From: an uncultured Methanosarcinales archaeon
Lineage (GTDB): Archaea; Nanobdellota; Nanobdellia; Woesearchaeales; UBA10216
Direction of reading: 5' to 3'
Assembly (NCBI GenBank): GCA_964504135.1
Contig: CAZDCW010000003.1
Location: 427 to 64,426 of the forward strand
DNA: 64,000 nt
The notes beneath the pieces are model-generated. The model was not told where the DNA came from, did not search any database, and worked only from the letters and a program-made list of their open reading frames with translations. This document shows, piece after piece, positions 47,894 through 59,831 of this stretch. A program made the translations under genes and the position numbers. Positions within the stretch are counted from its first letter, which is position 1. Each line of letters opens with the position of its first letter.

Positions 47894-48808
47894 ATGGGCT
47901 TTAATAAAAGTTTGCACTCCGAAAAGTATTTAATGCAGGCCCGCGCTGGGTGGATTATGGTTCTTGAGCTCCTGATAAACCCGAAGGCGGCTGAGAGGAG
48001 TCCTTGGGAGCTTTTCTTCTTCGGGCTCGTGTATGCAAGCATAGCGATTGTCCTGGCGATGTGGATTTTCGCGGAGAAGGTGGGCCTGGTAATGGTGTTC
48101 CTTACCACCCTGTCATGCACTTATCTTATTCAGAGGACCCTCCGGATGGAGGAGAGGAAGGACCAGAAGTTCGCCAGCGAGATTAGGCTGCTCAGGGAGC
48201 ATGGGAAGGCCCTTACTTTTTTCATGTTCCTTTTCCTTGGCTTTACGGTTGCGTTCTCTTTGTGGTACATCCTGGCTCCGGCTGAGACTGCCCAGCGGAT
48301 ATTCGGGATTCAGATTGAGACGATTGAGTCCATAAACTCGGCTGTGACAGGCAACGCCATGTCAGGGGCTGCAGCGTTCACCAAGATATTCGCAAACAAC
48401 ATGCGTGTGCTTCTTTTCAGCTTTATCTTTGCAATCTTCTATGGGGCAGGTGCTGTTTTCATCCTTGCCTGGAACGCGGCTGTTGTCGGGACAGCTATTG
48501 GCAGCTTTGCCAGGTCTGGGCTGGCAGCGCTGGCAAATAAGGTTGGCCTGCTCGGAGTTGGCCATTATCTTGCAACCTATTCCCTGGGCCTGCTGAAATA
48601 CATGACTCACGGCTGGCTTGAGATACTTGCTTATTTCACCGCAGCCCTTGCTGGCGGGATTCTTTCTATGGCGCTGGTGAAGCACAGCCTTGGGAGTGAA
48701 GCTTTTAGGAGGACCCTGCGGGACTCGGTGGACCTTGCTCTTCTTAGTGTTTTGATGATTGTTGCCGCGGCAGGAATAGAGGTCTTTATCACTCCTGTTC
48801 TTTTTTAG
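47894..48808 (+). CDS. SpoIIM/DUF95-family integral membrane protein
   Basis: 304 aa with about 6 TM helices. The start may instead be an internal Met at 47933 or 47957. Confidence 0.4.
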   Translation: MGFNKSLHSEKYLMQARAGWIMVLELLINPKAAERSPWELFFFGLVYASIAIVLAMWIFAEKVGLVMVFLTTLSCTYLIQRTLRMEERKDQKFASEIRLLREHGKALTFFMFLFLGFTVAFSLWYILAPAETAQRIFGIQIETIESINSAVTGNAMSGAAAFTKIFANNMRVLLFSFIFAIFYGAGAVFILAWNAAVVGTAIGSFARSGLAALANKVGLLGVGHYLATYSLGLLKYMTHGWLEILAYFTAALAGGILSMALVKHSLGSEAFRRTLRDSVDLALLSVLMIVAAAGIEVFITPVLF

Positions 48809-49944
48809 GCTCTTAGCAGTTCTTGGTAGAGTTCCAGGTGCCGTTTTATGTTCTCTTCTATGCTGAATTTCCTGGGCCTTGATTTGGCGTACTTTCCTTT
48901 GTGCACCTTTTCCACCGCGGCAGCGATTGATTCAGGGTTTCTGGGCTCTGCCAGCAGGTATTTTCCTGACACTATCTCTGGAAGGGAGTTGATGCTGCTC
49001 GCCACAACAGGCTTTCCCATTGCGCAGGCCTCGGCAGCGACGTATCCAAAGCCTTCTGCAAGGCTTGGCACGACGATGCAGTCAGCGGCTGCTATGTAGT
49101 CTGGAAGCCTTTCATGGCTGACTGGCGGTATCAATATGGCCCTGCTGCTTGCCTCAAGTATTTTCCTTACCCTTGAATACCTGTCACTGTAGTCTGGAGT
49201 TATGATAAAGACCCATTTTAGGTTTGCAATTTTTGCCTTTTCCACAGCCATGGCCGCATACTCTATTCCTTTGCTGGGCGCGGCCCGGCCATATGTCAGG
49301 CATACGAAGCTGTTTCCGAGGCCAAGCTGCTTTCTTAATTTCTCGCCTTTGTGCTTTCTCGGGTTGAAGTGCGAATAGTCAACTCCGTTGTATATTACTG
49401 TTGAGTTTGGCTTTTTCAGCTGCCTTTTTGTTGATTCTGAAACGCATATATACCGGTCAAAGGGAATTCTGTATATGCACCATTCCATGAAATTAAGGAT
49501 GGCTGCCTTTACCTCCCCGACATCAGTGTACTCTTTCCATTTGCCTGTCCACACCTCATGGACTGTTATCACCGCAGGCCTTCCGGAAAAAAGCGAGGCG
49601 ATGAAGGCGGGTGCTGCTGATGCGAATGTGGTGGCGTGTATTATGTCAGCGTTCCTTGCGAGTGCAACAGCTTTTGGGATGCAGAGTATGGCGTACAGGT
49701 ACCTGTTGGGCGCATCTATCCTGTGTATCTTTACGCCGTTAAGTACCTCATGGCTTTTGCTTCCTGGAACCTTCCTTGTCAGTACAGTTACCTGCTGTCC
49801 TTTTGCCACAAGCCCTTCTGCAAGGTTTTTGAACAGCGTTTCAGCTCCTCCCTTGAATGGCCAGTAGTTGTCGAGTATGAAGAGTATTTTCATCGCGTAT
49901 GTGTCATAGAAGTAAGTCCTAGTCCCATAGCCTTCTTGCTTCAT
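48805..49944 (-). CDS. family-4 glycosyltransferase (GT-B, retaining)
   Basis: EX7E-type motif (SLAEGFGYVAAEACAMGKPVVAS). 379 aa. Confidence 0.8.
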   Translation of the reverse strand: MKQEGYGTRTYFYDTYAMKILFILDNYWPFKGGAETLFKNLAEGLVAKGQQVTVLTRKVPGSKSHEVLNGVKIHRIDAPNRYLYAILCIPKAVALARNADIIHATTFASAAPAFIASLFSGRPAVITVHEVWTGKWKEYTDVGEVKAAILNFMEWCIYRIPFDRYICVSESTKRQLKKPNSTVIYNGVDYSHFNPRKHKGEKLRKQLGLGNSFVCLTYGRAAPSKGIEYAAMAVEKAKIANLKWVFIITPDYSDRYSRVRKILEASSRAILIPPVSHERLPDYIAAADCIVVPSLAEGFGYVAAEACAMGKPVVASSINSLPEIVSGKYLLAEPRNPESIAAAVEKVHKGKYAKSRPRKFSIEENIKRHLELYQELLRA

Positions 49945-50108: not shown

Positions 50109-50921
50109 ATGAATATACGCTCATCTGTAACGCTTAACGACAGCAACAGGATGCCCTGGCTTGGCCTTGGCACTTGGAGAAGCCCGCCCGGAAAAGCCAC
50201 AGAGCAGGCTGTTTTATGGGCTTTGGAGGCAGGTTACAGGCATGTAGATACCGCTGCAGTCTATGGCAATGAGCAGAGTGTTGGCGCAGCTGTGCAAAAA
50301 AGCGGCATTTCAAGGGACGAAATCTTCATAACGACCAAGCTGTGGAACGCCGGCCATTCCAATCCCCGAAAGGCGCTGCAGCAAAGCCTGAGTAGGCTCG
50401 GTATGGGTTATGTGGACCTTTACCTGATTCATTTCCCTGTAAGGCAGCGCCTCTCATCCTGGCGTGTCCTTGAGCAGCTCCAGAAAGACGGCCTGTGCAG
50501 GTCAATTGGCGTCAGCAACTTCACTGTCAGGCATCTAAAGGAGCTTCTGCCTTCTGCTAAGGTGATTCCTGCTGTGAACCAGGTTGAGTTCAACCCTTAC
50601 CTCTATCAGAGTGGGCTTCATGGGTTCTGCACAAAAAATAAGGTCCAGCTTGAGGCCTACAGCCCCCTTGCCCAGGGCGAGAAGCTGACGGACCCTAAGC
50701 TCGTATCCCTTGCCGCCAAATACAGCCGTTCACCTGCCCAGATTCTTATCAGGTGGTGCCTCCAGAAGAGGCTTGTTGTTATTCCCAAATCAGTCCATAG
50801 GGAATTCATATTCCAGAATGCTGATGTCTTCGGCTTTAGCATAAAAAAGGAAGACCTGGTTTTGCTGGACAGCTTTGATGAGAACCTCCGCCTCTGCTGG
50901 GACCCGACTGATGCGCCGTGA
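50109..50921 (+). CDS. aldo/keto reductase
   Basis: LGLGTWR, the active-site tetrad residues (D, Y, K, H), IPKSVH. 270 aa. Confidence 0.85.
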   Translation: MNIRSSVTLNDSNRMPWLGLGTWRSPPGKATEQAVLWALEAGYRHVDTAAVYGNEQSVGAAVQKSGISRDEIFITTKLWNAGHSNPRKALQQSLSRLGMGYVDLYLIHFPVRQRLSSWRVLEQLQKDGLCRSIGVSNFTVRHLKELLPSAKVIPAVNQVEFNPYLYQSGLHGFCTKNKVQLEAYSPLAQGEKLTDPKLVSLAAKYSRSPAQILIRWCLQKRLVVIPKSVHREFIFQNADVFGFSIKKEDLVLLDSFDENLRLCWDPTDAP

Positions 50922-50923
50922 GT

Positions 50924-51187
50924 TTATTCTTCAGGGTTGTAGACTTTGAGGCCTTCCTTGGCAGCGGCGATGTTAAGGTTTTTGTCCGCCGAAATAAATT
51001 CCATTTGTTCTGTGGCATTTGTCAAAGCAGAGTAAAGGTGAATTGCATCATTGACGGTTAAATGGTGCTTTATAATGTAATCAACGGCAAAGGTCATTGC
51101 CAATGAGGTTATTTCCGCCAGAATTATCAAATCGTTGTCAGTCAGGTCTCTTATGTCAGACGTGAACTCGCTTATCGCCTCAGACAC
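50924..51187 (-). CDS. PIN-domain (VapC-like) protein, C-terminal motifs intact, start codon non-canonical or N-terminus degenerate
   Basis: VNDAIHLYSAL and FISADKNLNIAAAKEGLKV match PIN motifs 3 and 4. The track start is a GTG. By my hand translation the frame stays open at least 70 codons upstream without an ATG. Confidence 0.35.
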   Translation of the reverse strand: MSEAISEFTSDIRDLTDNDLIILAEITSLAMTFAVDYIIKHHLTVNDAIHLYSALTNATEQMEFISADKNLNIAAAKEGLKVYNPEE

Positions 51188-51670: not shown

Positions 51671-52012
51671 CTACTTCTCCCTCTTCCTCGCCTCTTCTAT
51701 GGCCAGCTTCCTGACCAGTTCCTCTACCTTGCGCTGGGTTTTCACGGTTATTATGTTTGAGTGGAACACCGCTCCTGTGAGGAGCATGAAGCCAGCTATT
51801 ATGAGGAGGTCCATCTTTCTGCTTATGTTGAGGGTTCTTATAAGGGGGTTTAGTATTTCAGGCGCAAGGCTTATTACCGAGAATCCCAGCGCAAGCACTG
51901 TCCAGAATGCCCACTCGTTTATGGTCAGTTCCTTTCTCTTGTAGTTCATGAAGGCGAGGTACATCAGGAACAGCCCGAACAGCGCTCCGAGTATTTGTAT
52001 TATGAGTACCAT
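51671..52012 (-). CDS. DUF2304-family small membrane protein
   Basis: 113 aa with 3-4 TM helices and a basic C-terminus. It is the usual companion of Dol-P glycosyltransferase GT2 genes. Confidence 0.5.
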   Translation of the reverse strand: MVLIIQILGALFGLFLMYLAFMNYKRKELTINEWAFWTVLALGFSVISLAPEILNPLIRTLNISRKMDLLIIAGFMLLTGAVFHSNIITVKTQRKVEELVRKLAIEEARKREK

Positions 52013-52013
52013 T

Positions 52014-52673
52014 TTAGCGTGTGAATTTCCACCATATCATCTGCGCCACTATTGATATTCCGTCCATTACTGTGGTGCCCTTGTATTTGTCCACGTATAT
52101 CGTTTTTACAGGCACCTGCTGGAATTTTATCCTGTGCTTTCCTGTGAGGGCTATCATTTCTGACTCTACGCTGTAGTCTGTGGCCTTCCATCGTATCTTC
52201 TGGTAGGCTTCCTTTTTAAAGGCTCTGTATCCGCATTGCGTGTCGTTTATTCTCATGTGGAACAGCATCCTGACTGCTGTGCCTATGAACCAGTTCCCGA
52301 ATCTGAATACAAGGGGCATTTCTCCTCCAAGCCTTCTGTATCCGAATACCATGTCCGCACCTTCAAGTGCCTTGATGAAGTGCGGGATTTCCTCTGGGTC
52401 GTGCTGGGTGTCCGAGTCCAGCAATATGATTGCGTCAGCGCCTTGCATGACTGCGTAGTCGCAGCCTGTCTTGAGGGCTGCTCCCTTGCCGAGGTTTATT
52501 AGGTGCCTTAGCACCGCAACCCCTGCTTTTTGCGCCTCTTCTGCTGTTGCGTCCCTGCTTCCATCGTCAACTACTATTATCCGCCGCGGGTCTATCTGTT
52601 TTTTTGTCTTTATGATTACTTCTGTGATGTGCTTCTGCTCGTTGTAGGCCGGGATTACAGCGAATGCGTTCAT
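52014..52673 (-). CDS. family-2 glycosyltransferase (dolichyl-phosphate hexose synthase-like)
   Basis: VIPAYNE...IIVVDDGS.D.T, DxD (LDSDTQHD). 219 aa. 4-nt overlap with aglB. Confidence 0.8.
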   Translation of the reverse strand: MNAFAVIPAYNEQKHITEVIIKTKKQIDPRRIIVVDDGSRDATAEEAQKAGVAVLRHLINLGKGAALKTGCDYAVMQGADAIILLDSDTQHDPEEIPHFIKALEGADMVFGYRRLGGEMPLVFRFGNWFIGTAVRMLFHMRINDTQCGYRAFKKEAYQKIRWKATDYSVESEMIALTGKHRIKFQQVPVKTIYVDKYKGTTVMDGISIVAQMIWWKFTR

Positions 52674-55600
52674 CTTATCTTTTCTATCCTGAACCTGAAG
52701 AATAGCGTCTTGTTGCCCAGCGGGTGCTTGTCCGGCTCTGTCCCGTATGCCTTTTCCGGGCTTATCCTGGCGGTCTTTTCCTCGCCGGCCTTCATTCCAG
52801 TCATCTGCTCTTCAAGGCCAGGTATTATTTCTGATTTGCCCATTGTGAAGGTGAAGGGCGCTGAGTCTTCACCGAATGGCTGGTCTTTTGTTATGTTGCG
52901 GCTGTCCCAGTTGTATATTGAGCTGTCAAACACAGTCCCGTCCTCCAGGTATCCTATGTAGTTGAATGTCACGCTGTCCTGCGGCCCTACACTTTCCTTT
53001 GTTGTCAGCTCTGATTTTGTGTGCATCTCCCCGCCTTTCCAGTCCACTCTGTATACGTATATTTCCGCTCCTGTTATGCTTCTCTGGTATGTGAGGAGCT
53101 TGAAGTGCCTTAGGCTGTGGCCTTTCATGAAGAACATCCTTGTGAACATGCTTGCGTTCAGCTCTGGCGCTGCCATTACCATCCTGTAATTGTCGCCTTC
53201 GGGTATTATTGTCGCGGCCCAGTCTATGCCTACGTTTTCAGAGTGGGATTTCTGCTCAACCCCTTTTTCCGTAGCTATTGCCACCGCCCTCAGGTTCTTT
53301 GGCTCCTGGCCCTCAAGCAGGAGCACTGCGTCGTTTGCTGAGAAATTTATTGCAGGGACTATGTTCAGTCTCCTTCCACCGCCTGCGTCCAGGCCTATGG
53401 TGTCGCATATTCCTGTTTTTCCGTCGCAGTTCAGTATTTGTCCGTAGCTTGGCCAGGGGCTTATCCATGTGTTTCCCTGTGCGTCATTCATGGCCTGGAT
53501 GTCGTAGTAGGTTTGCTCTGCCTGTTCACTTGTGTAGTTGAGCTTGCTCTGCATTTCTGCTATTGCCTCTTCTGCGGGCTTTTCCCGCAGCCTGTTCCAT
53601 ATGTATGCCTTTTCAAAGTCCCATGAGCCGAAGTGCGCCCATACTCCTGATTTTCCTATCATGTCTTCTGATGCTATGAAGAAGGCTTCCGGAGGCTCGC
53701 AGTGTGTGTATTTTAGCACTGCCTCTGCCTGCCCGGCAGTCATCCCGTATTTCTGCCTGAGCTTTTTGCCTGCCGCCTCCCTGTCGTCCTTGAATACGCT
53801 GTAAAGTATGCCTATTGACATGAGGGTGTCGTTTCCGTTTGCCTTCTGGACTTCCTCGAATGCGTTGTTGCCCCCGCAGTCAAGCATCCTTAGTATGCCT
53901 ACAGCCATTTCCTCATCGTCAGTTTTTAGTATCTGCCCTACCCAGTGTGCCTGCGGGCTTCCCTGGGTTGTGCCGTCAAATGTCACAGGCCTTTCGGCGA
54001 GCGCCTTGAAGTGGTGCCCGAAGTCCCACCAGCTGGTTATTATCGCTGTCCTGTTTGAGTTGTCCCTTATTGCAGCCAGTGAGTTGTACCATGCGTCGTT
54101 TATTATTGGCACGTCCTGTTTTGCTATGCTTATAGAGACCGCCCATGCGTTGGATGGCACCATTACAAGGACAAGCAGCAGCGCGAATACGGTTACGGAT
54201 GCTATTGTCCGTTGGATTTTCAGGTCAGTTGTCAGCGAGTGCTCCAGCCTCTTGTGTATGAACCCTATGGCGACTCCGAAGGCTATTGCGAATGCAGGCA
54301 CGAGCAGCATTACAAACCTTATTCCCTTGGTGCTGGCATACATTGTCACTATGAACCATATTATCAGCAGCGCGGCCACTCTCATGTCTATTGGCTCGTG
54401 CATTATTCCGGCATAGAGTGTCCGGGCCAGTATTGGCAGGCTGAGGAGTATGAGGAACCATTCCTGCACAAGTTCGCCTCTCATCAGCAGGAGGATAAGC
54501 CAGTATGCTGCTGAGCCCAGTATGAACATCCATTCCTGCCAGTCCACCCTCTTCTTGGTCATGCTTATCATTATTCCCAGGAGGGCTGTGAAGAAGAATA
54601 CAGGGCCGCCCACGTTGTTCATTATGTCGTTGATGCCGCCCTCGTTTAGTTCTGCCACGGTTGTAAGCACGTTTGGGAAAAGGCTTTCCATGACAGGCGC
54701 CTTTATCCTGGTGAATGCCAGCGAGCCTATCGGGCTGAGTATGAAGGTGTCAAGGCCTGAAAGCAGGCTTACGAATATCCCGGAGAACAGTATGAACATT
54801 AAGGTTACTGTTAGCGCTGTTTTTACCTCATGGGTGAACAAATTCCCGATTCCTTTTGCAATCTGCTTTCTGTTTGCAAGGATTATGTAGCCGAAGTATA
54901 CTGCTGATGCTGCAAGCAGGAAGTTGTATATGAACCACCATCCTCCCCATATTCTTGAGAATAGGCCCATGCTCAGGCCTGCAAGGAAGGTCAGGGCAGT
55001 TTGCCATTTCAGGCTTTTGGACTCGATGGCCATGAGGAAGAGGAATGCGGTGAGCACAGAGAAGAACAGTACCCATGTGTCAGAGTCCCCATGTCCGAAG
55101 AGGCTTCTTGAAAGCGCGGATGGGTTGAGCGCCATCAGCAGGCCTGCAAAAAGCCCTCCTACATCTCCTGCTATTCTTCTGCAGATGAAGAACACTATTA
55201 CAGCCGCGAGGGCTGCTATTATTACAGGGTAAAGCATCTCCGCGTACATTAGTGTCATTCCCGGGTTGAATATCCTGAGAATCCTGTAGAATAGGGCTAT
55301 GGAGTATGGGTGGAAAGTATCTTCCGGCTCTACATATCTTCCTTCTGGCGCCAGCTGGAATGTGTCGTAGCTTCTCCCGTTTTTTATAGTGTCGCCGGGG
55401 TAGCCGTGGTCAACTATGTTTCTTGCGTACCTGAACCAGTAGTAGGGGTCTATGTCAGGCATGTATGCATTTCCCTGGTCGTCCAGGTAGAATGTTTTGA
55501 AGTATTCTGCTGTCTGCTGGACTTGCTGTTTGATGTTTGCTGACTGGCCTGCGTATTGCCCTGTCCTGAATGCGTATTCTCCTTTTTTCAGGGCCTCGTT

Positions 55601-56143
55601 GAAGTCCTTGTCTATGAGCTCGTTCTTCTGCCTGTCCGGAAGGTTCGGGTACTGTGCCAGGATTGACTGCTCGATGTCAGCCCTTAGGAATCCGTATGTG
55701 CTTTGCTTTGCCCAGTCTTCGGCGTACAGCATTTGGCCGGGAAGCATCCTTACATATGCGGCTGCCGCGGCTATTATTATGATGGCCGCCACAATGAGCA
55801 GCTGCCTGCTGTTTTTATGGAAGAATCCTGATATGGCTTGGGTGTCAAGGCTTAGCTCGTCCTCATCCTGCGGGGCTTTTTCACGGTGTGCCTTTGGGCC
55901 TTGCTTGAAGAGGCCTTTTAATTTTCCAAATGTTTCGCCTATGCTGACCTCATCTTCAGCATCTTCATGTGCTGCTTCATGCTTTTTGTGGTGTTCGTGC
56001 TCTGGCCGCTGTTCGTGCTGCTCTGCTTTCTCTTCCTTGTGATGTTCTTCCTTGCCTGGCTGCCCTTCCTTCTTTTTTCCGAATGGCCACATCTTGCCAA
56101 GGTCTATGTCGAGGTCGTCTTCCTTTTCATCCATTTTTCCCAA
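52670..56143 (-). CDS. aglB: archaeal oligosaccharyltransferase AglB (STT3) with N-terminal His/Glu-rich extension and C-terminal FKBP-type peptidyl-prolyl isomerase domain
   Basis: 1157 aa. About 13 TM helices and the WWDFGHHF (WWDYG) motif. The extracytoplasmic C-terminal domain ends in a clear FKBP module (VTFNYIGYLEDGTVFDSS ... PFTFTMGKSEIIPGLEEQMTGMKAGE...ISPEKAYG). Confidence 0.85.
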   Translation of the reverse strand: MGKMDEKEDDLDIDLGKMWPFGKKKEGQPGKEEHHKEEKAEQHEQRPEHEHHKKHEAAHEDAEDEVSIGETFGKLKGLFKQGPKAHREKAPQDEDELSLDTQAISGFFHKNSRQLLIVAAIIIIAAAAAYVRMLPGQMLYAEDWAKQSTYGFLRADIEQSILAQYPNLPDRQKNELIDKDFNEALKKGEYAFRTGQYAGQSANIKQQVQQTAEYFKTFYLDDQGNAYMPDIDPYYWFRYARNIVDHGYPGDTIKNGRSYDTFQLAPEGRYVEPEDTFHPYSIALFYRILRIFNPGMTLMYAEMLYPVIIAALAAVIVFFICRRIAGDVGGLFAGLLMALNPSALSRSLFGHGDSDTWVLFFSVLTAFLFLMAIESKSLKWQTALTFLAGLSMGLFSRIWGGWWFIYNFLLAASAVYFGYIILANRKQIAKGIGNLFTHEVKTALTVTLMFILFSGIFVSLLSGLDTFILSPIGSLAFTRIKAPVMESLFPNVLTTVAELNEGGINDIMNNVGGPVFFFTALLGIMISMTKKRVDWQEWMFILGSAAYWLILLLMRGELVQEWFLILLSLPILARTLYAGIMHEPIDMRVAALLIIWFIVTMYASTKGIRFVMLLVPAFAIAFGVAIGFIHKRLEHSLTTDLKIQRTIASVTVFALLLVLVMVPSNAWAVSISIAKQDVPIINDAWYNSLAAIRDNSNRTAIITSWWDFGHHFKALAERPVTFDGTTQGSPQAHWVGQILKTDDEEMAVGILRMLDCGGNNAFEEVQKANGNDTLMSIGILYSVFKDDREAAGKKLRQKYGMTAGQAEAVLKYTHCEPPEAFFIASEDMIGKSGVWAHFGSWDFEKAYIWNRLREKPAEEAIAEMQSKLNYTSEQAEQTYYDIQAMNDAQGNTWISPWPSYGQILNCDGKTGICDTIGLDAGGGRRLNIVPAINFSANDAVLLLEGQEPKNLRAVAIATEKGVEQKSHSENVGIDWAATIIPEGDNYRMVMAAPELNASMFTRMFFMKGHSLRHFKLLTYQRSITGAEIYVYRVDWKGGEMHTKSELTTKESVGPQDSVTFNYIGYLEDGTVFDSSIYNWDSRNITKDQPFGEDSAPFTFTMGKSEIIPGLEEQMTGMKAGEEKTARISPEKAYGTEPDKHPLGNKTLFFRFRIEKIR

Positions 56144-56221
56144 CTTCCGGGCAGAACCCGGGTCTATATATAAAGATTGTTGTGGCTGTTTTTCCCCCCT
56201 TTGTATTGTAAACGAAGAGGC

Positions 56222-56419: not shown

Positions 56420-57523
56420 CTAAATAATAAGCCTCGCGAATCCCAGCAGTTCTGGAGAACCGGCCAGCAGTTTCGCCATGAATCTGGCTGGGAAGTCCCT
56501 GTCGTGTTCTTCCAGTATTTTCCTGTTGCGCTCCTTCTGGAATATCCCGACCAGCTTGTTGTAATCGTAATCTGTGAACTTGTCCATGGCTTTCCTCATC
56601 ATCAGGTGCAGCCAAAGGTCTCTTGCAAGCCTGCTTCTCCACAGCCTGCTGTAGTTCTTCCTGTGCGTGATTGATTCGGCGAGCGCTTTTGCCGCGATGT
56701 GGCTCTGCATTATCCCGCCGAGTGTTGTCGCCTTCACCATCGTGGCTGCATCGCCAACCGTGTAAACATTCCCGTTCTGTGTTTTTACATTCGGGTCGTA
56801 TAGCGGTATGGGCCCTGCCTGTCTTGCAAGTATCAGTCCCGCATAGTCCTCGCCAAGCACTTTCCTGCAGAAGCCTTCAAAGTATTTCTGCGGCTCGTTC
56901 AGCGTGGCAACTCCAATCCTCACCCTGTCCTTGGATTCAGGCACAGTCCATGCTATGCCCTGCGTGCCGGGGTAAAAGTCAATCATGTTGTCATTTTCCC
57001 TTTTTGCGGTTGCCTGCAGCCCGAGGTATAGCTTTCTTTTTCCGTAAAGGCCGTTGTTCTTTGCAACCCTGCTTGCCGGCCCGTCAGCTCCGATTAGCAT
57101 TTTTGTTTCAGTCTCGTATTCTTCGCCGCTTTTCAGGTCTTTAACCATCACCTTTTCCATGTCGCCGGAGGGCCGGTTTCCCATGTATACGTGGTTTAGC
57201 TTGTATTCAGCCCCGCTCCGCTGGGCCATTTCCGCAACGTGCTGGTCAAGGAGGTGCCTGTTGAATATCTTGTTGGGATGCCTGAAGTTTATTTTTACAT
57301 TCTCCCCGTTTGGCGAGTATATCCTTGCGCTCTCAACAGTGTTGGCGATTAGCTCTTTTTTGGGCTTAATCAGCGTGTCGAAGTGCGAGGTTATTATGCC
57401 TGTGCATGCCACCGGCAGGCCTACCGTGGAATTTGCCTCGTACACCTCCACGTCAAACCCTTCGCCCGCCAGAAGGTAGGCTGCGTAATTCCCCGCAGCC
57501 CCTGCGCCGATTATGGTTATCAT
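56420..57523 (-). CDS. geranylgeranyl reductase (digeranylgeranylglycerophospholipid reductase, FAD-dependent)
   Basis: MITIIGAGAAGNYAAYLLA, a GxGxxG FAD motif, with a Cys in VACTG. I prefer the start at the internal Met. Confidence 0.85.
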   Translation of the reverse strand: MITIIGAGAAGNYAAYLLAGEGFDVEVYEANSTVGLPVACTGIITSHFDTLIKPKKELIANTVESARIYSPNGENVKINFRHPNKIFNRHLLDQHVAEMAQRSGAEYKLNHVYMGNRPSGDMEKVMVKDLKSGEEYETETKMLIGADGPASRVAKNNGLYGKRKLYLGLQATAKRENDNMIDFYPGTQGIAWTVPESKDRVRIGVATLNEPQKYFEGFCRKVLGEDYAGLILARQAGPIPLYDPNVKTQNGNVYTVGDAATMVKATTLGGIMQSHIAAKALAESITHRKNYSRLWRSRLARDLWLHLMMRKAMDKFTDYDYNKLVGIFQKERNRKILEEHDRDFPARFMAKLLAGSPELLGFARLII

Positions 57524-57626
57524 CTTTCCCTGTATCTGGCATCTGCTTTTATTTTTTTCCCGGCAAATCGGGAAATCCGCAAAATCCGGTCGAAACCTTT
57601 TTAGCATCCTGAAGCTTCCCAGCCTG

Positions 57627-58595
57627 ATGCTAAGGGATGAGGTTCTTAAGCTGGATCCCGGCAGGGTAGCCCTCTGGGATTTTCTCAGGTCAGGGAGCCT
57701 TGAGCGGGGCGATACTATTAGGATTGGCGGCGCATCTTACTCGATGTTAACTGGAGGGTCTGCCAGTTGTGGGCTTGGCACTGCTAACCTTTTCCTCTAT
57801 CATTCGCCTGACATCAACCGTAATTACAGCACTTTGGATGAGGTGGTTAGGGACCCTGCGCTTCTTGACGCGTTGGACCCTGACCCTGATAAGCCTAGCA
57901 TCCGCAATCGGGTTGCCATTACCTACAATTACTGGCATGCCTTCTTTGATGCGGTTAAAGGGCTTCCTGGGGGGTTTTCAGCAGTGGAGCTGGACAGGCT
58001 TCAGTCAGCCGGTTACATGGTGCCTTTTTTGCAGCAGCTGGCCCTTTCAGGCCGCATGGGCACGCCTGAGCTTGAGGCCAGGCAGGGCGTGTGGCCGCTG
58101 GCGTATCATTCGCACAGCTCTGATTCAATAATTTTTTCCCCTCGCTACTCCTCGCTTGTTCAATTATACGCTGGCCAGAGGACTGTCTCTGACATCCATG
58201 GCCTCAGCAGGATTATTTTTGGCAGCAGTGATGCCGAGCAGTGGAGGAGGCTTTATGTCAGGAATCACCAGGAGTTTATGGCTTACCTTGGCGTTGGCTG
58301 CCTGGATGCTGCGCCTGGGCCGCGGCTTTTTAGTGGGGGCTGCCTTCCGGGCATGGCCTTTTTTGCAGCCATCACAGCCATAGGCATAGCGGCCAGCAGC
58401 GGTTTTCTGCTTGGCAGGGGTCCGGCTGCGCCAGCAGCAACGCCTGTTCCGGTTGCCGAGGAGCCTGCTGCCACACCGGCCGCAGTAATCCCCCCGACTA
58501 CTCTAACCCCCACTCTCTATATTCCAAGTGTGCTTAATGGCACATCGTCAGGCACGGCTTATGTTCCGGTGATAGTCAGCGGAAGGCCTGACTGA
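57627..58595 (+). CDS. paralog 1 of an unrecognised single-TM membrane protein family (MLRDEV...ALWDFL N-domain, Pro/Thr-rich C-tail)
   Basis: The N-terminal block MLRDEVLKLDPGRVALWDFLRS is shared with the ORFs at 58623 and 60667. It is followed by a soluble domain of about 250 aa, one TM helix, and a PT-rich tail with an NGT sequon. The track ORF begins 38 codons upstream, at 57513. Confidence 0.5.
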   Translation: MLRDEVLKLDPGRVALWDFLRSGSLERGDTIRIGGASYSMLTGGSASCGLGTANLFLYHSPDINRNYSTLDEVVRDPALLDALDPDPDKPSIRNRVAITYNYWHAFFDAVKGLPGGFSAVELDRLQSAGYMVPFLQQLALSGRMGTPELEARQGVWPLAYHSHSSDSIIFSPRYSSLVQLYAGQRTVSDIHGLSRIIFGSSDAEQWRRLYVRNHQEFMAYLGVGCLDAAPGPRLFSGGCLPGMAFFAAITAIGIAASSGFLLGRGPAAPAATPVPVAEEPAATPAAVIPPTTLTPTLYIPSVLNGTSSGTAYVPVIVSGRPD

Positions 58596-58622: not shown

Positions 58623-59831
58623 ATGGTTACAAACACAAGTTTTTTAAAAGCTCATGACTTCCCTGGGCTGATGCTAAGGAATGAAGTAAGTGCAAAGCTG
58701 GATGATGCCAGGCTCGGACTCTGGGATTTTCTCACGTCGGCTGGCCCTGACAGACCTCTGGCTGGACTTACCATTTCTGTAGGCGGCATCAACTATAAAA
58801 TTGACCCTGCAGCAGCTGGAGGTATGGACCCTTTACATGCTTCTCTGTTCCTTACTAGCCCTAAAGGAGACCACAGGTATGAGGGCTTGGATGATCTGAT
58901 TTTTGATATGGGTGGTTTTGAAGTTGGGGATAAGCCTGATGAACAGGCGCCCCTTCTCCGCCGCCTTGAGGCAACTAGGTGGTTCTGGGGCAGCTTTAGT
59001 GTCGCAGTGGCAAACCTGCCAAATGAATTTCCTCCGGGTACGGTAGACAGCCTTCACTCAGGGCATTACCTTAAGCCTTTCCTGCAGCAGTTGACTGCGG
59101 AGAATCACATCAGGAGGGCGCTTGACTCTAATCGCGGCAGAACTCCATTGGAGTACGCATGGCACAGCATTGGTTCATTTGATTCGCCTTCTTCGATAAC
59201 TTTTACACAGTCAAACAGGGATCAGCTTGTTATAGAAAGCATCCATGGCCTTACAGGGATAAGGTTTAAGGATGCCGGCGCTGAGGCGCTGAGGCGCCAT
59301 TACCTCAGAATCCATACGGATTTCATGAACTACCTTGGGGTTCCATGCGTTGCTGCTCCGAGGGATATTGGCGGAATTCTGGAATCTGGTTTGGCTGCCG
59401 CTCTCCGAATGCAACATAAGCCCCGCCCAGTGGAGCCTTTTCTTGCTGCCTTTCTTATAGGGGTGGTTGGCTATGCGTCATATGCCTGTCTCCCCCAGCC
59501 TCCTTCAGGCTCTTCGCTTGCCGCAGCCACGCCTACTCCGGCAGTCTCAGCCACGCCTATGGCTGCAACACAGGTAGCCGCTTCAACCCCGGTGCCTGTT
59601 TCAACGCCTCAGGCTGTTGCTCCTCTGGTTCCCGGGGTTCTTGGAAGGGATTATCATCTCGGCCTTCCGGTGGTTCCTTATGGAGAGCAAACCAGCCGCA
59701 GGTATTCAGTGAATGCGCCAATAGTCCCGAGTGGAAATCTGCCTGGGCTCCCGACGCCTGCTGCTTCGCCGGCTCCGAGGGCTGGGCAAGGCTTTCTGCC
59801 TGTTGTGCCGGCAAGCTACACTTCAAAGTGA
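58623..59831 (+). CDS. paralog 2 of the same family
   Basis: MLRNEVSAKLDDARLGLWDFLTS, conserved internal blocks (YLKPFLQQL; HGLTGIRF...RRHYL..H.DFMNYLGV.C), a TM helix, and a P/T/A-rich tail. The start may be the internal Met at 58671. Confidence 0.5.
   Translation: MVTNTSFLKAHDFPGLMLRNEVSAKLDDARLGLWDFLTSAGPDRPLAGLTISVGGINYKIDPAAAGGMDPLHASLFLTSPKGDHRYEGLDDLIFDMGGFEVGDKPDEQAPLLRRLEATRWFWGSFSVAVANLPNEFPPGTVDSLHSGHYLKPFLQQLTAENHIRRALDSNRGRTPLEYAWHSIGSFDSPSSITFTQSNRDQLVIESIHGLTGIRFKDAGAEALRRHYLRIHTDFMNYLGVPCVAAPRDIGGILESGLAAALRMQHKPRPVEPFLAAFLIGVVGYASYACLPQPPSGSSLAAATPTPAVSATPMAATQVAASTPVPVSTPQAVAPLVPGVLGRDYHLGLPVVPYGEQTSRRYSVNAPIVPSGNLPGLPTPAASPAPRAGQGFLPVVPASYTSK
59494..59831 (+). repeat. about 338-bp segment duplicated nearly identically at 61466..61803 (3' ends of paralogs 2 and 3)
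   Basis: Nucleotide identity runs from the cccagcctccttcaggctc block to the stop codon, with 3 substitutions near the 5' edge. The flanks diverge immediately after the stop. Confidence 0.85.

What the first reader, a model, noticed from the sequence alone, without database searches (positions are those of the whole stretch)
52670..56143. Oligosaccharyltransferase AglB fused to an extracytoplasmic FKBP-type prolyl isomerase (and a His/Glu-rich N-terminal extension)
I read a WWDFG-containing STT3/AglB core. The roughly 110 residues before the stop align motif-for-motif with FKBP12. The blocks are YIGYLEDGTVFDSS, PFTFTMGK.EIIPGLEE...M..GE, ISPEKAYG and the terminal LFFRFRIEKI strand.

The AglB C-terminal domain lies outside the cell. 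This FKBP would therefore sit at the exit site where nascent secreted or S-layer proteins are N-glycosylated, which would physically couple glycosylation to proline isomerisation. I am not aware of this fusion as a described AglB architecture.

The first roughly 130 residues (EEHHKEEKAEQHEQRPEHEHHKKHEAAHEDAEDE) form a second unusual add-on. It is cytoplasmic and looks like a possible metal-binding segment.

Downstream, translationally coupled, are a Dol-P sugar synthase (GT2) and a DUF2304 protein. Together these make a compact N-glycosylation module.
Basis: partly seen in the sequence, partly recalled or inferred. Interest (0 to 1): 0.7.

Follow-up and report, generated by a model that had tools for sequence, protein, structure and literature searches.

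The report
Archaeal oligosaccharyltransferase with built-in prolyl isomerase
A Woesearchaeota (DPANN archaeon) gene encodes the N-glycosylating enzyme AglB with an FKBP-type protein-folding catalyst fused to its outward-facing end. The design recurs in dozens of related species, sometimes with an unrelated parvulin isomerase in the same place, and I found no paper describing it.

Summary
Window 52670-56134 (-) encodes a 1154-aa protein with four parts:
- a disordered cytoplasmic N-terminal extension;
- a 13-TM STT3/AglB core (Pfam E 7.6e-41) with every catalytic motif invariant;
- an external WWDFG domain;
- a C-terminal FKBP domain (Pfam E 1e-18; Foldseek TM 0.75-0.80 to FKBP12/13).

No hydrophobic segment follows TM13, so the FKBP lies outside the cell.

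It is not an assembly artefact. 39 of 118 aligned homologs (36-64% identical), 37 GTDB species representatives and about 31 clusters at 50% identity share the architecture. The FKBP pocket residues are near-invariant, and the domain is as conserved as the membrane core.

At least six relatives instead carry a parvulin PPIase at the same C-terminal position. This convergence argues that isomerase or foldase function is what selection couples to the OST.

The operon (GGR-like reductase, AglB-FKBP, GT2, DUF2304, GT4) is syntenic across the clade.

The proposed His/Glu "metal-binding" N-terminus is not supported. His-richness is not conserved. A repeated acidic-amphipathic motif is, and it occurs clade-wide.

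No literature description was found. The closest parallels are human FKBP11 at OST-A and the Ost3/6 thioredoxin subunits. Verdict: a real, undescribed variant of a known enzyme, of moderately high interest.

The parts
52670..56134 (-). aglB-FKBP gene (1154 aa plus stop). The mechanical ORF extends to the TTG at 56143.
   Evidence: P0001 is 100% identical, 1154 aa. Homolog N-termini begin at the equivalent Met.
56165..56174 (-). TATA-like box TTTATATATA about 35 nt upstream of the ATG. Putative archaeal promoter (inference).
   Evidence: direct reading of the sequence. Not tested statistically.
55802..56134 (-). Cytoplasmic N-terminal extension. Disordered and K/E/H-rich.
   Evidence: pLDDT below 50 for residues 1-92. 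Lies before TM1. Composition.
56075..56122 (-). N-terminal repeat motif copy 1 (EDDLDIDLGKMWPFGK)
   Evidence: nearly invariant D11, F18.
55901..55957 (-). N-terminal repeat motif copy 2 (EDEVSIGETFGKLKGLFKQ)
   Evidence: nearly invariant K73, F76. Helix 66-77 in the model.
55814..55867 (-). N-terminal repeat motif copy 3 (DEDELSLDTQAISGFFHK), directly before TM1
   Evidence: F104 nearly invariant. Helix 98-107 in the model.
54152..55810 (-). STT3/AglB membrane domain, TM1 to TM13, with long external loop EL1. Catalytic D229, D350/D352 and E495 (protein numbering).
   Evidence: Pfam STT3 E 7.6e-41. KD scan. Model helices. Invariant columns. Mapping to STT3A D49 and D167/E169.
53045..54151 (-). 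External C-terminal catalytic, helical and beta domain of AglB. Has 4 invariant Cys and conserved sequons.
54017..54031 (-). WWDFG motif
   Evidence: Invariant S-W-W-D-F-G-H. Aligned to STT3A WWDYG 525-529.
52979..53044 (-). Linker of about 22 residues between the AglB beta domain and the FKBP. Variable in length and sequence among homologs.
   Evidence: 0.38 mean identity. pLDDT 93-95 in the model.
52673..52978 (-). FKBP-type PPIase domain (protein residues 1053-1154). Pocket Y1059, F1069, D1070, F1094, I1103, I1104, L1107, Y1130, H1137, F1146. Sequons N1080-I-T and N1141-K-T.
   Evidence: Pfam FKBP_C E 1e-18. Alignment to FKBP12. Foldseek TM 0.75-0.80. Sequons.
52014..52673 (-). GT2 polyprenyl/dolichyl-phosphate sugar synthase-like gene. 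Its start overlaps the aglB stop (ATGA).
   Evidence: PF00535 E 1.9e-24. Best NCBIfam hits are PpgS and AglJ, both below the equivalog cut-offs. Junction. Synteny.
51671..52012 (-). DUF2304 small membrane protein, starting 1 nt after the GT2 stop
   Evidence: PF10066 E 1.5e-17. Junction. Synteny.
56420..57607 (-). Geranylgeranyl-reductase-family flavoprotein upstream. Conserved neighbour and candidate polyprenol/dolichol reductase (inference).
   Evidence: TIGR02032 E 2.6e-45, 155.4 bits against a cut-off of 158.8. PF01494. Synteny.
48805..49944 (-). GT4 glycosyltransferase. It follows DUF2304 directly in related loci but is separated by about 1.7 kb here.

Best explanation
This is the oligosaccharyltransferase AglB of a Woesearchaeota (DPANN) archaeon. 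It carries a covalently attached FKBP-type peptidyl-prolyl isomerase on the outer face of the membrane.

**Shown**
- The N-terminus (about 110 residues, disordered) precedes a 13-helix STT3 membrane domain.
- All OST catalytic elements (D229, D350-x-D352, T-V-A-E495, WWDFG, and a DK-like D824/K828 motif) are invariant in the clade.
- The external domain runs without any further membrane span, through a linker of about 22 residues, into a short-type FKBP domain.
- The FKBP substrate pocket is conserved.

**Inferred**
- AglB transfers a dolichol-phosphate-linked glycan onto N-x-S/T sequons of secreted and surface proteins as they emerge unfolded from the membrane.
- The tethered FKBP binds the same unfolded chains and catalyses Xaa-Pro cis/trans isomerisation, or acts as a holdase.
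- The FKBP could act before transfer, keeping sequon segments flexible. It could also act immediately after transfer, speeding folding of the newly glycosylated protein.
- The downstream GT2 and DUF2304 supply a Dol-P-sugar donor. The upstream GGR-family flavoprotein may saturate the lipid carrier. Together with a GT4 these form a compact N-glycosylation operon.
- In this reduced-genome lineage the OST would double as the membrane anchor and positioning device for an extracytoplasmic folding catalyst. This is functionally analogous to the folding-catalyst subunits of eukaryotic OST.
For: **Architecture**
- Pfam STT3 E 7.6e-41 and FKBP_C E 1e-18.
- AF2 model with mean pLDDT 89.8, pTM 0.84 and FKBP region about 95.
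- Foldseek matches PglB, STT3A and AglB (E down to 1e-16) and FKBP12/13 (TM normalised to the target 0.75-0.80, 31-33% identity).

**Active OST**
- Catalytic motifs map to STT3A D49, D167/E169 and WWDYG, and are invariant in 118 sequences.

**Outside location**
- No hydrophobic window after residue 720; the maximum KD19 is 1.10.
- 7 of 7 sequons and 4 of 4 invariant Cys lie in the C-terminal part.
- Sequons inside the FKBP are conserved in 35/39 and 24/39 proteins.

**Selection on the FKBP**
- Y26 38/39; F36, D37, Y82 and F99 39/39; I56 38/39; H87 32/39.
- Domain identity is 0.49, against 0.45 for the TM core.

**Vertical inheritance, not artefact**
- 39 of 118 homologs carry it, always at the C-terminus.
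- These cluster on the core tree with about 3 state changes.
- 37 GTDB species loci have it.
- About 31 long C-terminal-FKBP clusters appear among the top 150 representatives, and the 3 full-length plus 2 truncated ones tested are STT3+FKBP_C.

**Convergence**
- A parvulin PPIase sits at the same position in P0034 (E 4.5e-30), P0124-P0126, L045 and L087.

**Operon synteny**
-.

**Precedent for FKBP beside STT3**
- Human FKBP11 at OST-A (PMC12804085).
- OST-bound oxidoreductase MagT1 (PMC4137057).
Against: - No activity data exist for any member.
- W59 of FKBP12 is replaced by L here (F or L across the family). R42 and E54 are not conserved, and the 80s-loop residues I90/I91 are deleted. Catalytic efficiency could therefore be low.
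- Two thirds of the aligned clade members have no PPIase tail. No stand-alone PPIase gene lies within 6 kb of those. The function is thus dispensable or supplied elsewhere.
- The AglB C-terminus also accepts other appendages: DUF4352 and sequon-rich tails.
- In the human OST-A complex the authors argue that FKBP11 is an adaptor whose catalytic site is buried.
- Domain geometry (FKBP pocket versus peptide groove) could not be measured, because model coordinates and PAE are not exposed.
Confidence: 0.6

Rival explanations
1. Anchor only. The FKBP (or parvulin) is a general extracytoplasmic foldase for all secreted proteins. AglB merely provides a convenient membrane anchor in a minimal genome, and there is no mechanistic link to glycosylation.
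For: - Most clade members lack the tail.
- The AglB C-terminus tolerates several unrelated appendages.
- Bacterial extracytoplasmic PPIases such as PrsA and PpiD are simply membrane-tethered (my own knowledge).
- No PPIase neighbour compensates in tail-less loci.
Against: - Two unrelated PPIase folds were recruited to exactly the same position of the same enzyme.
- The closest non-AglB relatives of the FKBP domain tested are tandem FKBP proteins, not other membrane-protein fusions.
- The linker is short and predicted with pLDDT above 90, which suggests a defined position.
- Substrates of AglB and of a secretory foldase are largely the same unfolded chains, so physical proximity implies functional overlap anyway.
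Confidence: 0.25
2. Non-catalytic adaptor. The FKBP domain is a protein-protein interaction module, as proposed for human FKBP11 at OST-A. It would recruit a partner or a specific client to AglB rather than isomerise prolines.
For: - PMC12804085 argues that FKBP11 acts as an adaptor with its catalytic site buried.
- W59, R42, E54 and the 80s loop differ from FKBP12.
Against: - The core pocket residues are almost invariant over 39 diverged sequences.
- Replacement by a parvulin, a different fold that shares only the PPIase activity, is hard to explain for a fold-specific adaptor.
- No conserved candidate partner gene appears in the operon beyond glycosylation enzymes.
Confidence: 0.1
3. Cis-acting maturation or regulation. 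The FKBP acts on a proline of AglB itself (for example in EL5 or the external domain), either to assist its own folding or to switch its activity.
For: - Nearly invariant prolines exist in the external loops and domains (P480, P487, P814, P815, P893, P895).
- Tethering gives a high local concentration.
Against: - The same prolines are conserved in the two thirds of relatives that lack any PPIase tail, so AglB folds without one.
- There is no direct evidence.
Confidence: 0.04
4. Artefact. The fusion arises from a misassembly or a frameshift that joins AglB to a separate FKBP gene.
For: None found. The window is a metagenome-derived sequence, so this had to be considered.
Against: - The reading frame is continuous and conserved through the junction.
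- The same architecture occurs in dozens of independent assemblies at 36-94% identity, from different studies and environments.
- It sits in conserved synteny.
- The FKBP tail tracks the phylogeny of the core.
Confidence: 0.01

Closest known systems
STT3/AglB/PglB oligosaccharyltransferases (A. fulgidus AglB-L 3WAJ/7E9S, C. lari PglB 3RCE/6GXC, human STT3A 6S7O)
   Same: GT-C fold with 13 TM helices and an external C-terminal domain. Shares the EL1 Asp, DxD, EL5 T-x-x-E, WWDxG and a DK-like motif.
   Different: - Has a C-terminal PPIase domain.
- Has a long disordered N-terminal extension with repeated motifs.
- Has an enlarged EL1 and extra helical and beta insertions, so it is 1154 aa against about 700-870.
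- By sequence the clade profile hits eukaryotic STT3A (1e-25) but no archaeal or bacterial chain at E<1e-8.
Human FKBP11 at the OST-A secretory translocon (PDB 9N9J; PMC12804085)
   Same: An FKBP domain positioned on the extracytoplasmic (lumenal) side next to the STT3 catalytic subunit, engaging nascent secretory chains. STT3A of that entry is among the structural matches (rank 4).
   Different: FKBP11 is a separate single-pass membrane protein recruited via the ribosome. It binds CCDC134 with its catalytic site buried, and the authors interpret it as an adaptor. Here the FKBP is covalently fused to the OST, has a conserved pocket, and can be replaced by a parvulin.
Thioredoxin-fold OST subunits Ost3p/Ost6p, TUSC3 and MagT1 (PMC4137057)
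   Same: A protein-folding catalyst built into the OST. It modulates substrate folding so that sequons remain accessible (abstract, and my own knowledge of the Ost3/6 literature).
   Different: Oxidoreductase rather than prolyl isomerase chemistry. Separate subunits of a hetero-oligomer rather than a domain of the single-subunit archaeal enzyme.
Membrane-tethered extracytoplasmic PPIases of bacteria (PrsA lipoprotein, PpiD at SecYEG; my own knowledge)
   Same: A parvulin or FKBP-type foldase held at the outer face of the cytoplasmic membrane, where secreted proteins emerge unfolded.
   Different: These are anchored by a lipid or a single TM helix, not by another enzyme. They have no link to glycosylation.
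Short-type FKBPs (FKBP12, ER-lumenal FKBP13/FKBP2)
   Same: The fold (TM 0.75-0.80, 31-33% identity). Pocket residues Y26, F36, D37, F46, V55/I56, Y82, H87 and F99.
   Different: - A 17-residue insertion after the FDSS strand that carries a conserved Trp and a sequon.
- W59 replaced by L or F.
- A shortened 80s/90s loop.
- A conserved N-K-T sequon at the H94 position.
- No insert-in-flap chaperone domain of the kind found in archaeal FKBP17 and SlyD.
GT2 + DUF2304 polyprenyl-phosphate sugar synthase pair (mycobacterial PpgS with its small membrane partner; archaeal AglJ)
   Same: The best NCBIfam hits of the GT2 are PpgS (E 6.4e-34) and AglJ (E 1.4e-27). A DUF2304 gene lies immediately downstream.
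   Different: Scores are far below the equivalog cut-offs (117 against 370; 97 against 325), so sugar specificity is unknown. The role of the DUF2304 partner is recalled from the mycobacterial literature and was not tested here.

Membership tests
STT3/AglB oligosaccharyltransferase (PF02516, GT-C) | Significant match to the STT3 profile above the gathering score | tested here: met
   141.4 bits against a cut-off of 24.5, E 7.6e-41.
STT3/AglB oligosaccharyltransferase (PF02516, GT-C) | 13-TM GT-C fold with an external C-terminal domain | tested here: met
   AF2 model with pLDDT 89.8. Foldseek to PglB, STT3 and AglB with E 1e-16 to 1e-10.
STT3/AglB oligosaccharyltransferase (PF02516, GT-C) | Catalytic acidic residues: EL1 Asp, DxD/DxE, and EL5 TIxE/SVSE Glu | tested here: met
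   D229, D350/D352 and E495 (T-V-A-E) are invariant in 118 sequences. D229 and D350/D352 align with STT3A D49 and D167/E169.
STT3/AglB oligosaccharyltransferase (PF02516, GT-C) | WWDxG motif | tested here: met
   WWDFG is invariant and aligns to WWDYG of STT3A.
STT3/AglB oligosaccharyltransferase (PF02516, GT-C) | DK or MI motif forming the +2 Ser/Thr pocket | tested here: inconclusive
   An invariant D824-M-I-G-K828-x-x-V-W resembles the eukaryotic D-x-x-x-K-x-x-W-M by inspection. It was not verified by structural superposition.
STT3/AglB oligosaccharyltransferase (PF02516, GT-C) | Transfer of a lipid-linked glycan to Asn of N-x-S/T | not testable with these tools
   Requires a biochemical assay.
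TIGR04154 archaeo_STT3 (archaeosortase A-associated AglB subfamily) | Score above the curated cut-off | tested here: not met
   91 bits against a cut-off of 450. It is not a member of this subfamily.
FKBP-type PPIase (PF00254) | Significant match to the FKBP_C profile above the gathering score | tested here: met
   67.9 bits against 21.1, E 1e-18.
FKBP-type PPIase (PF00254) | FKBP fold (five-stranded sheet wrapped around a short helix) | tested here: met
   Foldseek to FKBP12 and FKBP13 with TM 0.75-0.80 normalised to the target. Model pLDDT is about 95.
FKBP-type PPIase (PF00254) | Hydrophobic pocket and catalytic residues (FKBP12 Y26, F36, D37, F46, V55, I56, W59, Y82, H87, F99) | tested here: met
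   9 of 10 are the same or conservative in the query, with W59 replaced by L. Y26, F36, D37, I56, Y82 and F99 are conserved in 38-39 of 39 homologs. R42, E54 and I90/I91 are not conserved.
FKBP-type PPIase (PF00254) | Measured PPIase activity or FK506/rapamycin binding | not testable with these tools
   Requires a biochemical assay.
Archaeal/SlyD-type FKBP with insert-in-flap chaperone domain | IF domain inserted in the 80s flap | tested here: not met
   The flap region is shorter than in FKBP12. The only insertion (about 17 aa) is in the 40s loop.
Dolichyl/polyprenyl-phosphate sugar synthase (GT2; AglJ/PpgS-like) for the downstream gene | GT2 domain, and an equivalog-level match to a characterised Dol-P or polyprenyl-P sugar synthase | tested here: inconclusive
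   PF00535 is met (86.9 against 23.3). PpgS at 117 against 370 and AglJ at 96.8 against 325 are below the cut-offs. The family-level assignment holds, but specificity is unknown.
DUF2304 (PF10066) for the second downstream gene | Profile match above the gathering score | tested here: met
   64.2 bits against 25.5.

The most novel reading that the evidence does not exclude
Prolyl isomerisation or holdase activity is mechanistically integrated into archaeal N-glycosylation. Two unrelated PPIase folds (FKBP and parvulin) were independently recruited to the AglB C-terminus, because holding or isomerising the emerging chain at the OST active site controls sequon occupancy and downstream folding. 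If so, single-polypeptide DPANN OSTs would be a prokaryotic counterpart, possibly an evolutionary forerunner in concept, of the folding-catalyst accessory subunits of eukaryotic OST (Ost3/6, TUSC3, MagT1 and FKBP11). They would also imply that archaeal AglB works on chains at the translocon exit.
Probability: 0.35. Interest if true: 0.8.

Novelty: new variant of a known kind. Interest (0 to 1): 0.62.

Why it matters
**The open questions.** How OSTs get access to sequons before the substrate folds is a central question in N-glycosylation. In eukaryotes it is addressed by accessory subunits: thioredoxin-like Ost3/6 and MagT1, and the recently visualised FKBP11/CCDC134 at OST-A. In archaea the OST is thought to be a lone subunit. 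Whether it acts co-translocationally, or with folding helpers, is unknown.

**What this family offers.**
- A natural, widespread, single-polypeptide OST-PPIase, with a parvulin-swapped sister form, is a ready-made minimal system. Wild type, tail-deleted and pocket mutants can be compared in vitro to test whether prolyl isomerisation or holdase activity tunes glycosylation.
- It gives a first hint of how genome-reduced DPANN archaea organise extracytoplasmic protein folding.
- It corrects the annotation: several database entries name these 1100-1200-aa OSTs simply "FKBP-type peptidyl-prolyl cis-trans isomerase".

Tried and rejected
1. **Assembly chimera or frameshift at the junction.** Rejected. 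The frame is continuous, and the same architecture appears in dozens of independent assemblies and tracks the core phylogeny.
2. **Cytoplasmic FKBP.** Rejected. No TM segment follows TM13, and the sequons and cysteines are confined to the C-terminal part.
3. **His/Glu-rich N-terminus as a conserved metal-binding segment.** Rejected. His content is not conserved, the region is predicted disordered, and the conserved element is a repeated acidic-amphipathic motif.
4. **Membership in the archaeosortase-associated AglB subfamily TIGR04154.** Rejected: 91 against 450 bits.
5. **Word-index search with the FKBP domain alone**. Only 3 hits, so uninformative. Replaced by the exhaustive representative search.
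6. **AFDB (afdb50) fold search.** The library was not available.
7. **Inter-domain geometry** (distance and orientation of the FKBP pocket relative to the WWDFG groove). Model coordinates and PAE are not exposed to the scripting environment.
8. **Stand-alone FKBP or parvulin genes next to tail-less AglBs.** None within 6 kb in 42 loci, nor in the P0081 locus. Gene-neighbourhood evidence therefore adds nothing beyond the fusions.
9. **A second AglB or any other FKBP or parvulin in the 64-kb window.** None found.
10. **Literature searches.** AglB+FKBP; OST+peptidyl-prolyl+Woesearchaeota; AglB+DPANN; STT3+FKBP+domain architecture+archaea; OST+parvulin+archaea; and the 2024 archaeal N-glycosylation review. 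No description of the fusion was found. The library lacks most subscription-journal papers, so absence is not proof.

Full report
**1. What is in the sequence**

On the minus strand, 52670..56143 is an uninterrupted ORF of 1157 codons counted from a TTG. The database holds an identical 1154-aa protein (P0001) that starts at the ATG three codons downstream, at 56134. Homologs begin at the equivalent Met. A TTTATATATA box lies about 35 nt upstream of that ATG, inside a 280-nt intergenic region. I therefore take 52670-56134 as the gene. Residue numbers below refer to the 1154-aa protein unless "ORF numbering" is stated; ORF numbering is protein numbering plus 3.

Pfam gives STT3 (ORF 212-661, E 7.6e-41) and FKBP_C (ORF 1050-1150, E 1e-18), both far above their gathering scores. 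WWDFG is at ORF residue 705.

The two downstream genes are a GT2 (PF00535, E 1.9e-24) and a DUF2304 protein (PF10066, E 1.5e-17). The best NCBIfam hits of the GT2 are the polyprenyl-phosphate GalNAc synthase PpgS and AglJ, both below the equivalog cut-offs. The AglB TGA overlaps the GT2 ATG as ATGA, and the DUF2304 ATG follows the GT2 TAA after one nucleotide.

**2. The OST part is intact**

A 118-sequence alignment of homologs (A1) shows these residues and motifs as invariant:
- P-D-I-D229-P-Y-Y
- G-H-x-D350-S-D352
- N-V-L-T-T-V-A-E495-L-N
- S-W-W-D-F-G-H (701-707)
- D720-G-T-T-Q...H730-W-V-G
- D824-M-I-G-K828-x-x-V-W

A profile of A1 matches human STT3A at E 1e-25. In the printed alignment D229 pairs with D49, D350/D352 with D167/E169, and WWDFG with WWDYG 525-529.

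An AlphaFold2 model built on A1 is confident, with mean pLDDT 89.8 and pTM 0.84. Foldseek matches it to PglB (E 1e-16), STT3A, yeast Stt3 and A. fulgidus AglB. It does not reach the cut-off of the archaeosortase-associated AglB subfamily TIGR04154 (91 against 450 bits).

**3. The FKBP part is a bona fide, conserved FKBP domain**

Foldseek matches the last ~110 residues of the same model to FKBP12 and the ER-lumenal FKBP13. TM-scores normalised to the target are 0.75-0.80, at 31-33% identity.

I aligned the query and 38 homologous tails with human FKBP12 (sequence from my own knowledge). The pocket residues behave as follows:

| FKBP12 residue | Query | Conservation among 39 |
|---|---|---|
| Y26 | Y1059 | 38/39 |
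| F36 | F1069 | 39/39 |
| D37 | D1070 | 39/39 |
| F46 | F1094 | F or L in 36/39 |
| V55 / I56 | I1103 / I1104 | I56 38/39 |
| W59 | L1107 | F in 23, L in 13 |
| Y82 | Y1130 | 39/39 |
| H87 | H1137 | 32/39 |
| F99 | F1146 | 39/39 |

The PDB holds engineered W59L and W59F FKBP12 bound to rapamycin (rows 24 and 26), so the pocket tolerates these residues. R42 and E54 are not conserved and I90/I91 are deleted.

There is a 17-residue insertion after the FDSS strand. There is no insert-in-flap domain.

Among the 39 fusion proteins, mean pairwise identity is 0.49 for the FKBP domain. This compares with 0.45 for the TM core, 0.41 for the external beta domain and 0.38 for the linker. The tail is therefore under purifying selection at least as strong as the enzyme it is attached to.

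**4. Topology**

A Kyte-Doolittle scan finds TM1 at ORF 115-133, a long loop, then TM segments up to ORF 664. Nothing hydrophobic follows residue 720; the maximum 19-residue mean is 1.10.

In all solved STT3, AglB and PglB structures the N-terminus is cytoplasmic. The active site is built on the extracytoplasmic face from EL1, EL5 and the WWD domain (established knowledge). The model reproduces that fold. The FKBP is contiguous with the WWDFG domain, so it is outside.

Independent indications agree:
- All 7 N-x-S/T sequons of the protein lie after residue 694.
- All 4 invariant cysteines (753, 812, 903, 910) lie in the external domain.
- Two sequons inside the FKBP are conserved: N1141-K-T in 35/39 and N1080-I-T in 24/39.

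DeepTMHMM was not available. This conclusion rests on hydropathy, homology and these indirect marks.

**5. Not an artefact, and how widespread**

- Of 118 aligned homologs (36-64% identical), 39 have an FKBP, always as the last ~100 residues.
- On a neighbour-joining tree of 849 core columns they fall almost entirely on one side. Parsimony needs about three gains or losses.
- A scan of one genome per GTDB species, using the junction plus FKBP as query, found 321 relatives. Among the 80 loci kept, 37 match through the FKBP. Essentially all are Woesearchaeota or Nanoarchaeia MAGs from groundwater, sediment and marine samples. One is 94% identical, on a 623-kb contig.
- An exhaustive HMMER search of 1.84 billion cluster representatives with the FKBP domain listed about 31 proteins of 1,000 aa or more with a single C-terminal FKBP among the top 150.
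- The three full-length ones tested are STT3+FKBP_C. Two of the four 545-763-aa proteins tested also carry STT3 plus FKBP_C and look like truncated fragments of the same; the other two showed only FKBP_C.
- NCBI names several of these 1100-1200-aa proteins simply "FKBP-type peptidyl-prolyl cis-trans isomerase".

**6. A second PPIase family at the same place**

P0034 (41% identical core) ends in a PpiC/parvulin domain instead (Rotamase_3, residues 999-1104, E 4.5e-30).

Searching with its junction plus tail recovered P0124-P0126, which are 50-56% identical to the query. Each contains the AglB beta-domain end (MFTRLFFFDGHGL...VWKVSW) followed by a parvulin. One of them sits in the same GT2-DUF2304-GT4 synteny (L088).

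Two GTDB species representatives encode ORFs of 1141 and 1151 aa with the same layout: L045 on a 116-kb contig, and L087. The parvulin hallmarks (H-I-L, G-D-L/I-G-W and Y-H-I-I) are visible in all of them by inspection.

On the core tree P0034 sits next to the FKBP-bearing clades, which suggests domain replacement. FKBP and parvulin share no fold, only the activity. This convergence is therefore the strongest argument that PPIase or foldase function is what is being coupled to AglB.

**7. Genomic context**

The order GGR-family flavoprotein, AglB, GT2 (~219 aa), DUF2304, then usually GT4, is conserved in relatives 37-60% identical. It is also conserved in an FKBP-less relative.

In the window:
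- The flavoprotein is 56420-57607 (-). TIGR02032 scores 155 bits against a cut-off of 158.8.
- The GT4 is 48805-49944 (-).
- An aldo/keto reductase and a small ORF are inserted between DUF2304 and the GT4.

No other AglB, FKBP or parvulin is encoded in the window. No stand-alone PPIase lies within 6 kb of tail-less AglBs.

**8. The N-terminal extension**

The extension is cytoplasmic by topology and predicted disordered (pLDDT below 50 for residues 1-92). It is present in the whole clade irrespective of the FKBP: median length is 129 aa with the tail and 109 aa without.

The query is 9.3% His, but the medians are 3.2% and 1.4%, and only 8 of 118 proteins reach 8%. What is conserved is a short motif, roughly [DE][DE]-x-S-x-D-F-x-K-I-K-x-F-F-K-K-K. 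It is present 1-4 times (253 instances in 105 of 118 proteins) and accounts for the nearly invariant D11, F18, K73, F76, K81 and F104.

A metal-binding role is therefore not supported. A repeated linear motif for membrane-surface or partner binding is more likely, but this is untested.

**9. Mechanism**

Shown:
- An intact OST and an intact FKBP pocket on one polypeptide.
- Both on the external face.
- Inherited together over a deep clade, and interchangeable with a parvulin.

Inferred:
- The tethered PPIase engages the same unfolded secretory chains that AglB glycosylates.
- It either keeps sequon-bearing segments pliable, or accelerates proline-limited folding right after glycan transfer.

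I put 0.6 on this coupled bifunctional reading. I put 0.25 on the weaker anchor-only reading, 0.1 on a non-catalytic adaptor role as proposed for FKBP11, and small probabilities on a cis-acting role or an artefact.

**10. Comparison with what is known**

The closest mechanistic parallels are eukaryotic.
- Human FKBP11, a membrane-anchored lumenal FKBP, was visualised beside OST-A/STT3A at the translocon. There it helps recruit CCDC134, and the authors argue against isomerase function because its site is buried (PMC12804085).
- The thioredoxin-like subunits Ost3/6, TUSC3 and MagT1 are folding catalysts within OST that keep cysteine-proximal sequons available (PMC4137057).
- Bacterial PrsA and PpiD are tethered foldases at the Sec exit (my own knowledge).

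None of these is a covalent OST-PPIase fusion. Seven literature searches, and the 2024 review of archaeal N-glycosylation, returned no description of one. The library omits most subscription journals.

**11. Verdict**

This is a real, conserved, apparently undescribed variant of a known enzyme. Its function is plausible but untested. It is of interest mainly because the FKBP/parvulin convergence and the recent eukaryotic FKBP11-OST findings make it a tractable minimal model for coupling between glycosylation and folding.

Noticed in passing
Relatives P0032-P0120 (FKBP-less AglBs); GTDB loci L046-L087: AglBs without a PPIase tail end in Asn/Ser-rich, sequon-dense tails. 46 of 79 terminate exactly in an N-x-S/T sequon such as ...NSS or ...NNS (15 of 40 in the GTDB loci). 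Parvulin-tailed P0125 and P0126 also end this way. This could be a tethered pseudo-substrate or a self-glycosylated tail.
   Followed up: partly
window 55814-56122 (-): three motif copies at 56075-56122, 55901-55957 and 55814-55867: The cytoplasmic N-terminal extension of the whole AglB clade carries 1-4 copies of a conserved acidic-amphipathic motif, [DE][DE]xSxDFxKIKxFFKKK, in otherwise disordered and variable sequence. There are 253 instances in 105 of 118 proteins. Function unknown; membrane, ribosome or partner docking are possibilities.
   Followed up: partly
P0034, P0124-P0126, L007, L045 (ORF 1141 aa), L087 (ORF 1151 aa), L088: A sister set of AglBs carries a PpiC/parvulin PPIase at the C-terminus instead of FKBP. 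In L088 the gene is called as two pieces (STT3 459 aa, then 297 aa), possibly from a frameshift in that assembly.
   Followed up: yes
P0116 (1214 aa): One AglB relative has a DUF4352 (PF11611) domain as its C-terminal appendage. The AglB C-terminus appears to be a hot spot for domain accretion.
   Followed up: no
window 57513-58595 (+) and 58623-59831 (+): Two tandem, visibly paralogous ORFs (360 and 402 aa) have no Pfam or NCBIfam match and have Pro/Ala/Thr-rich C-terminal parts. They are divergently oriented from the GGR-like gene, and the first mechanically overlaps its 5' end.
   Followed up: partly
P0244 (758 aa), P0245, P0246, P0274 (1780 aa): The closest non-AglB relatives of this FKBP domain are proteins with 3-6 tandem FKBP_C domains. 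P0244 scores 635 bits over six copies. Their origin and function were not examined.
   Followed up: partly
L010, L016-L019, L022, L037 and others: Many TPA-assembled MAGs titled 'uncultured Methanosarcinales archaeon' carry this Woesearchaeota-type AglB and its synteny. The titles are probably placeholder or erroneous taxonomy.
   Followed up: no
Alignment A1 against PDB: By sequence, the profile of this DPANN AglB clade matches eukaryotic STT3A/B and yeast Stt3 (E 1e-25 to 1e-11). It matches no archaeal AglB or bacterial PglB chain at E<1e-8, although Foldseek ranks PglB first by structure.
   Followed up: no
window 56420-57607 (-): A geranylgeranyl-reductase-family flavoprotein lies immediately upstream of aglB and is syntenic across the clade. 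It is a candidate for saturating the dolichol carrier. It scores just under the TIGR02032 cut-off (155.4 against 158.8 bits).
   Followed up: partly
window 50109-51187: An aldo/keto reductase (+ strand, PF00248, E 1e-47) and an 87-aa ORF with no Pfam hit interrupt the otherwise conserved DUF2304-GT4 adjacency. This looks like a local insertion relative to related loci.
   Followed up: no
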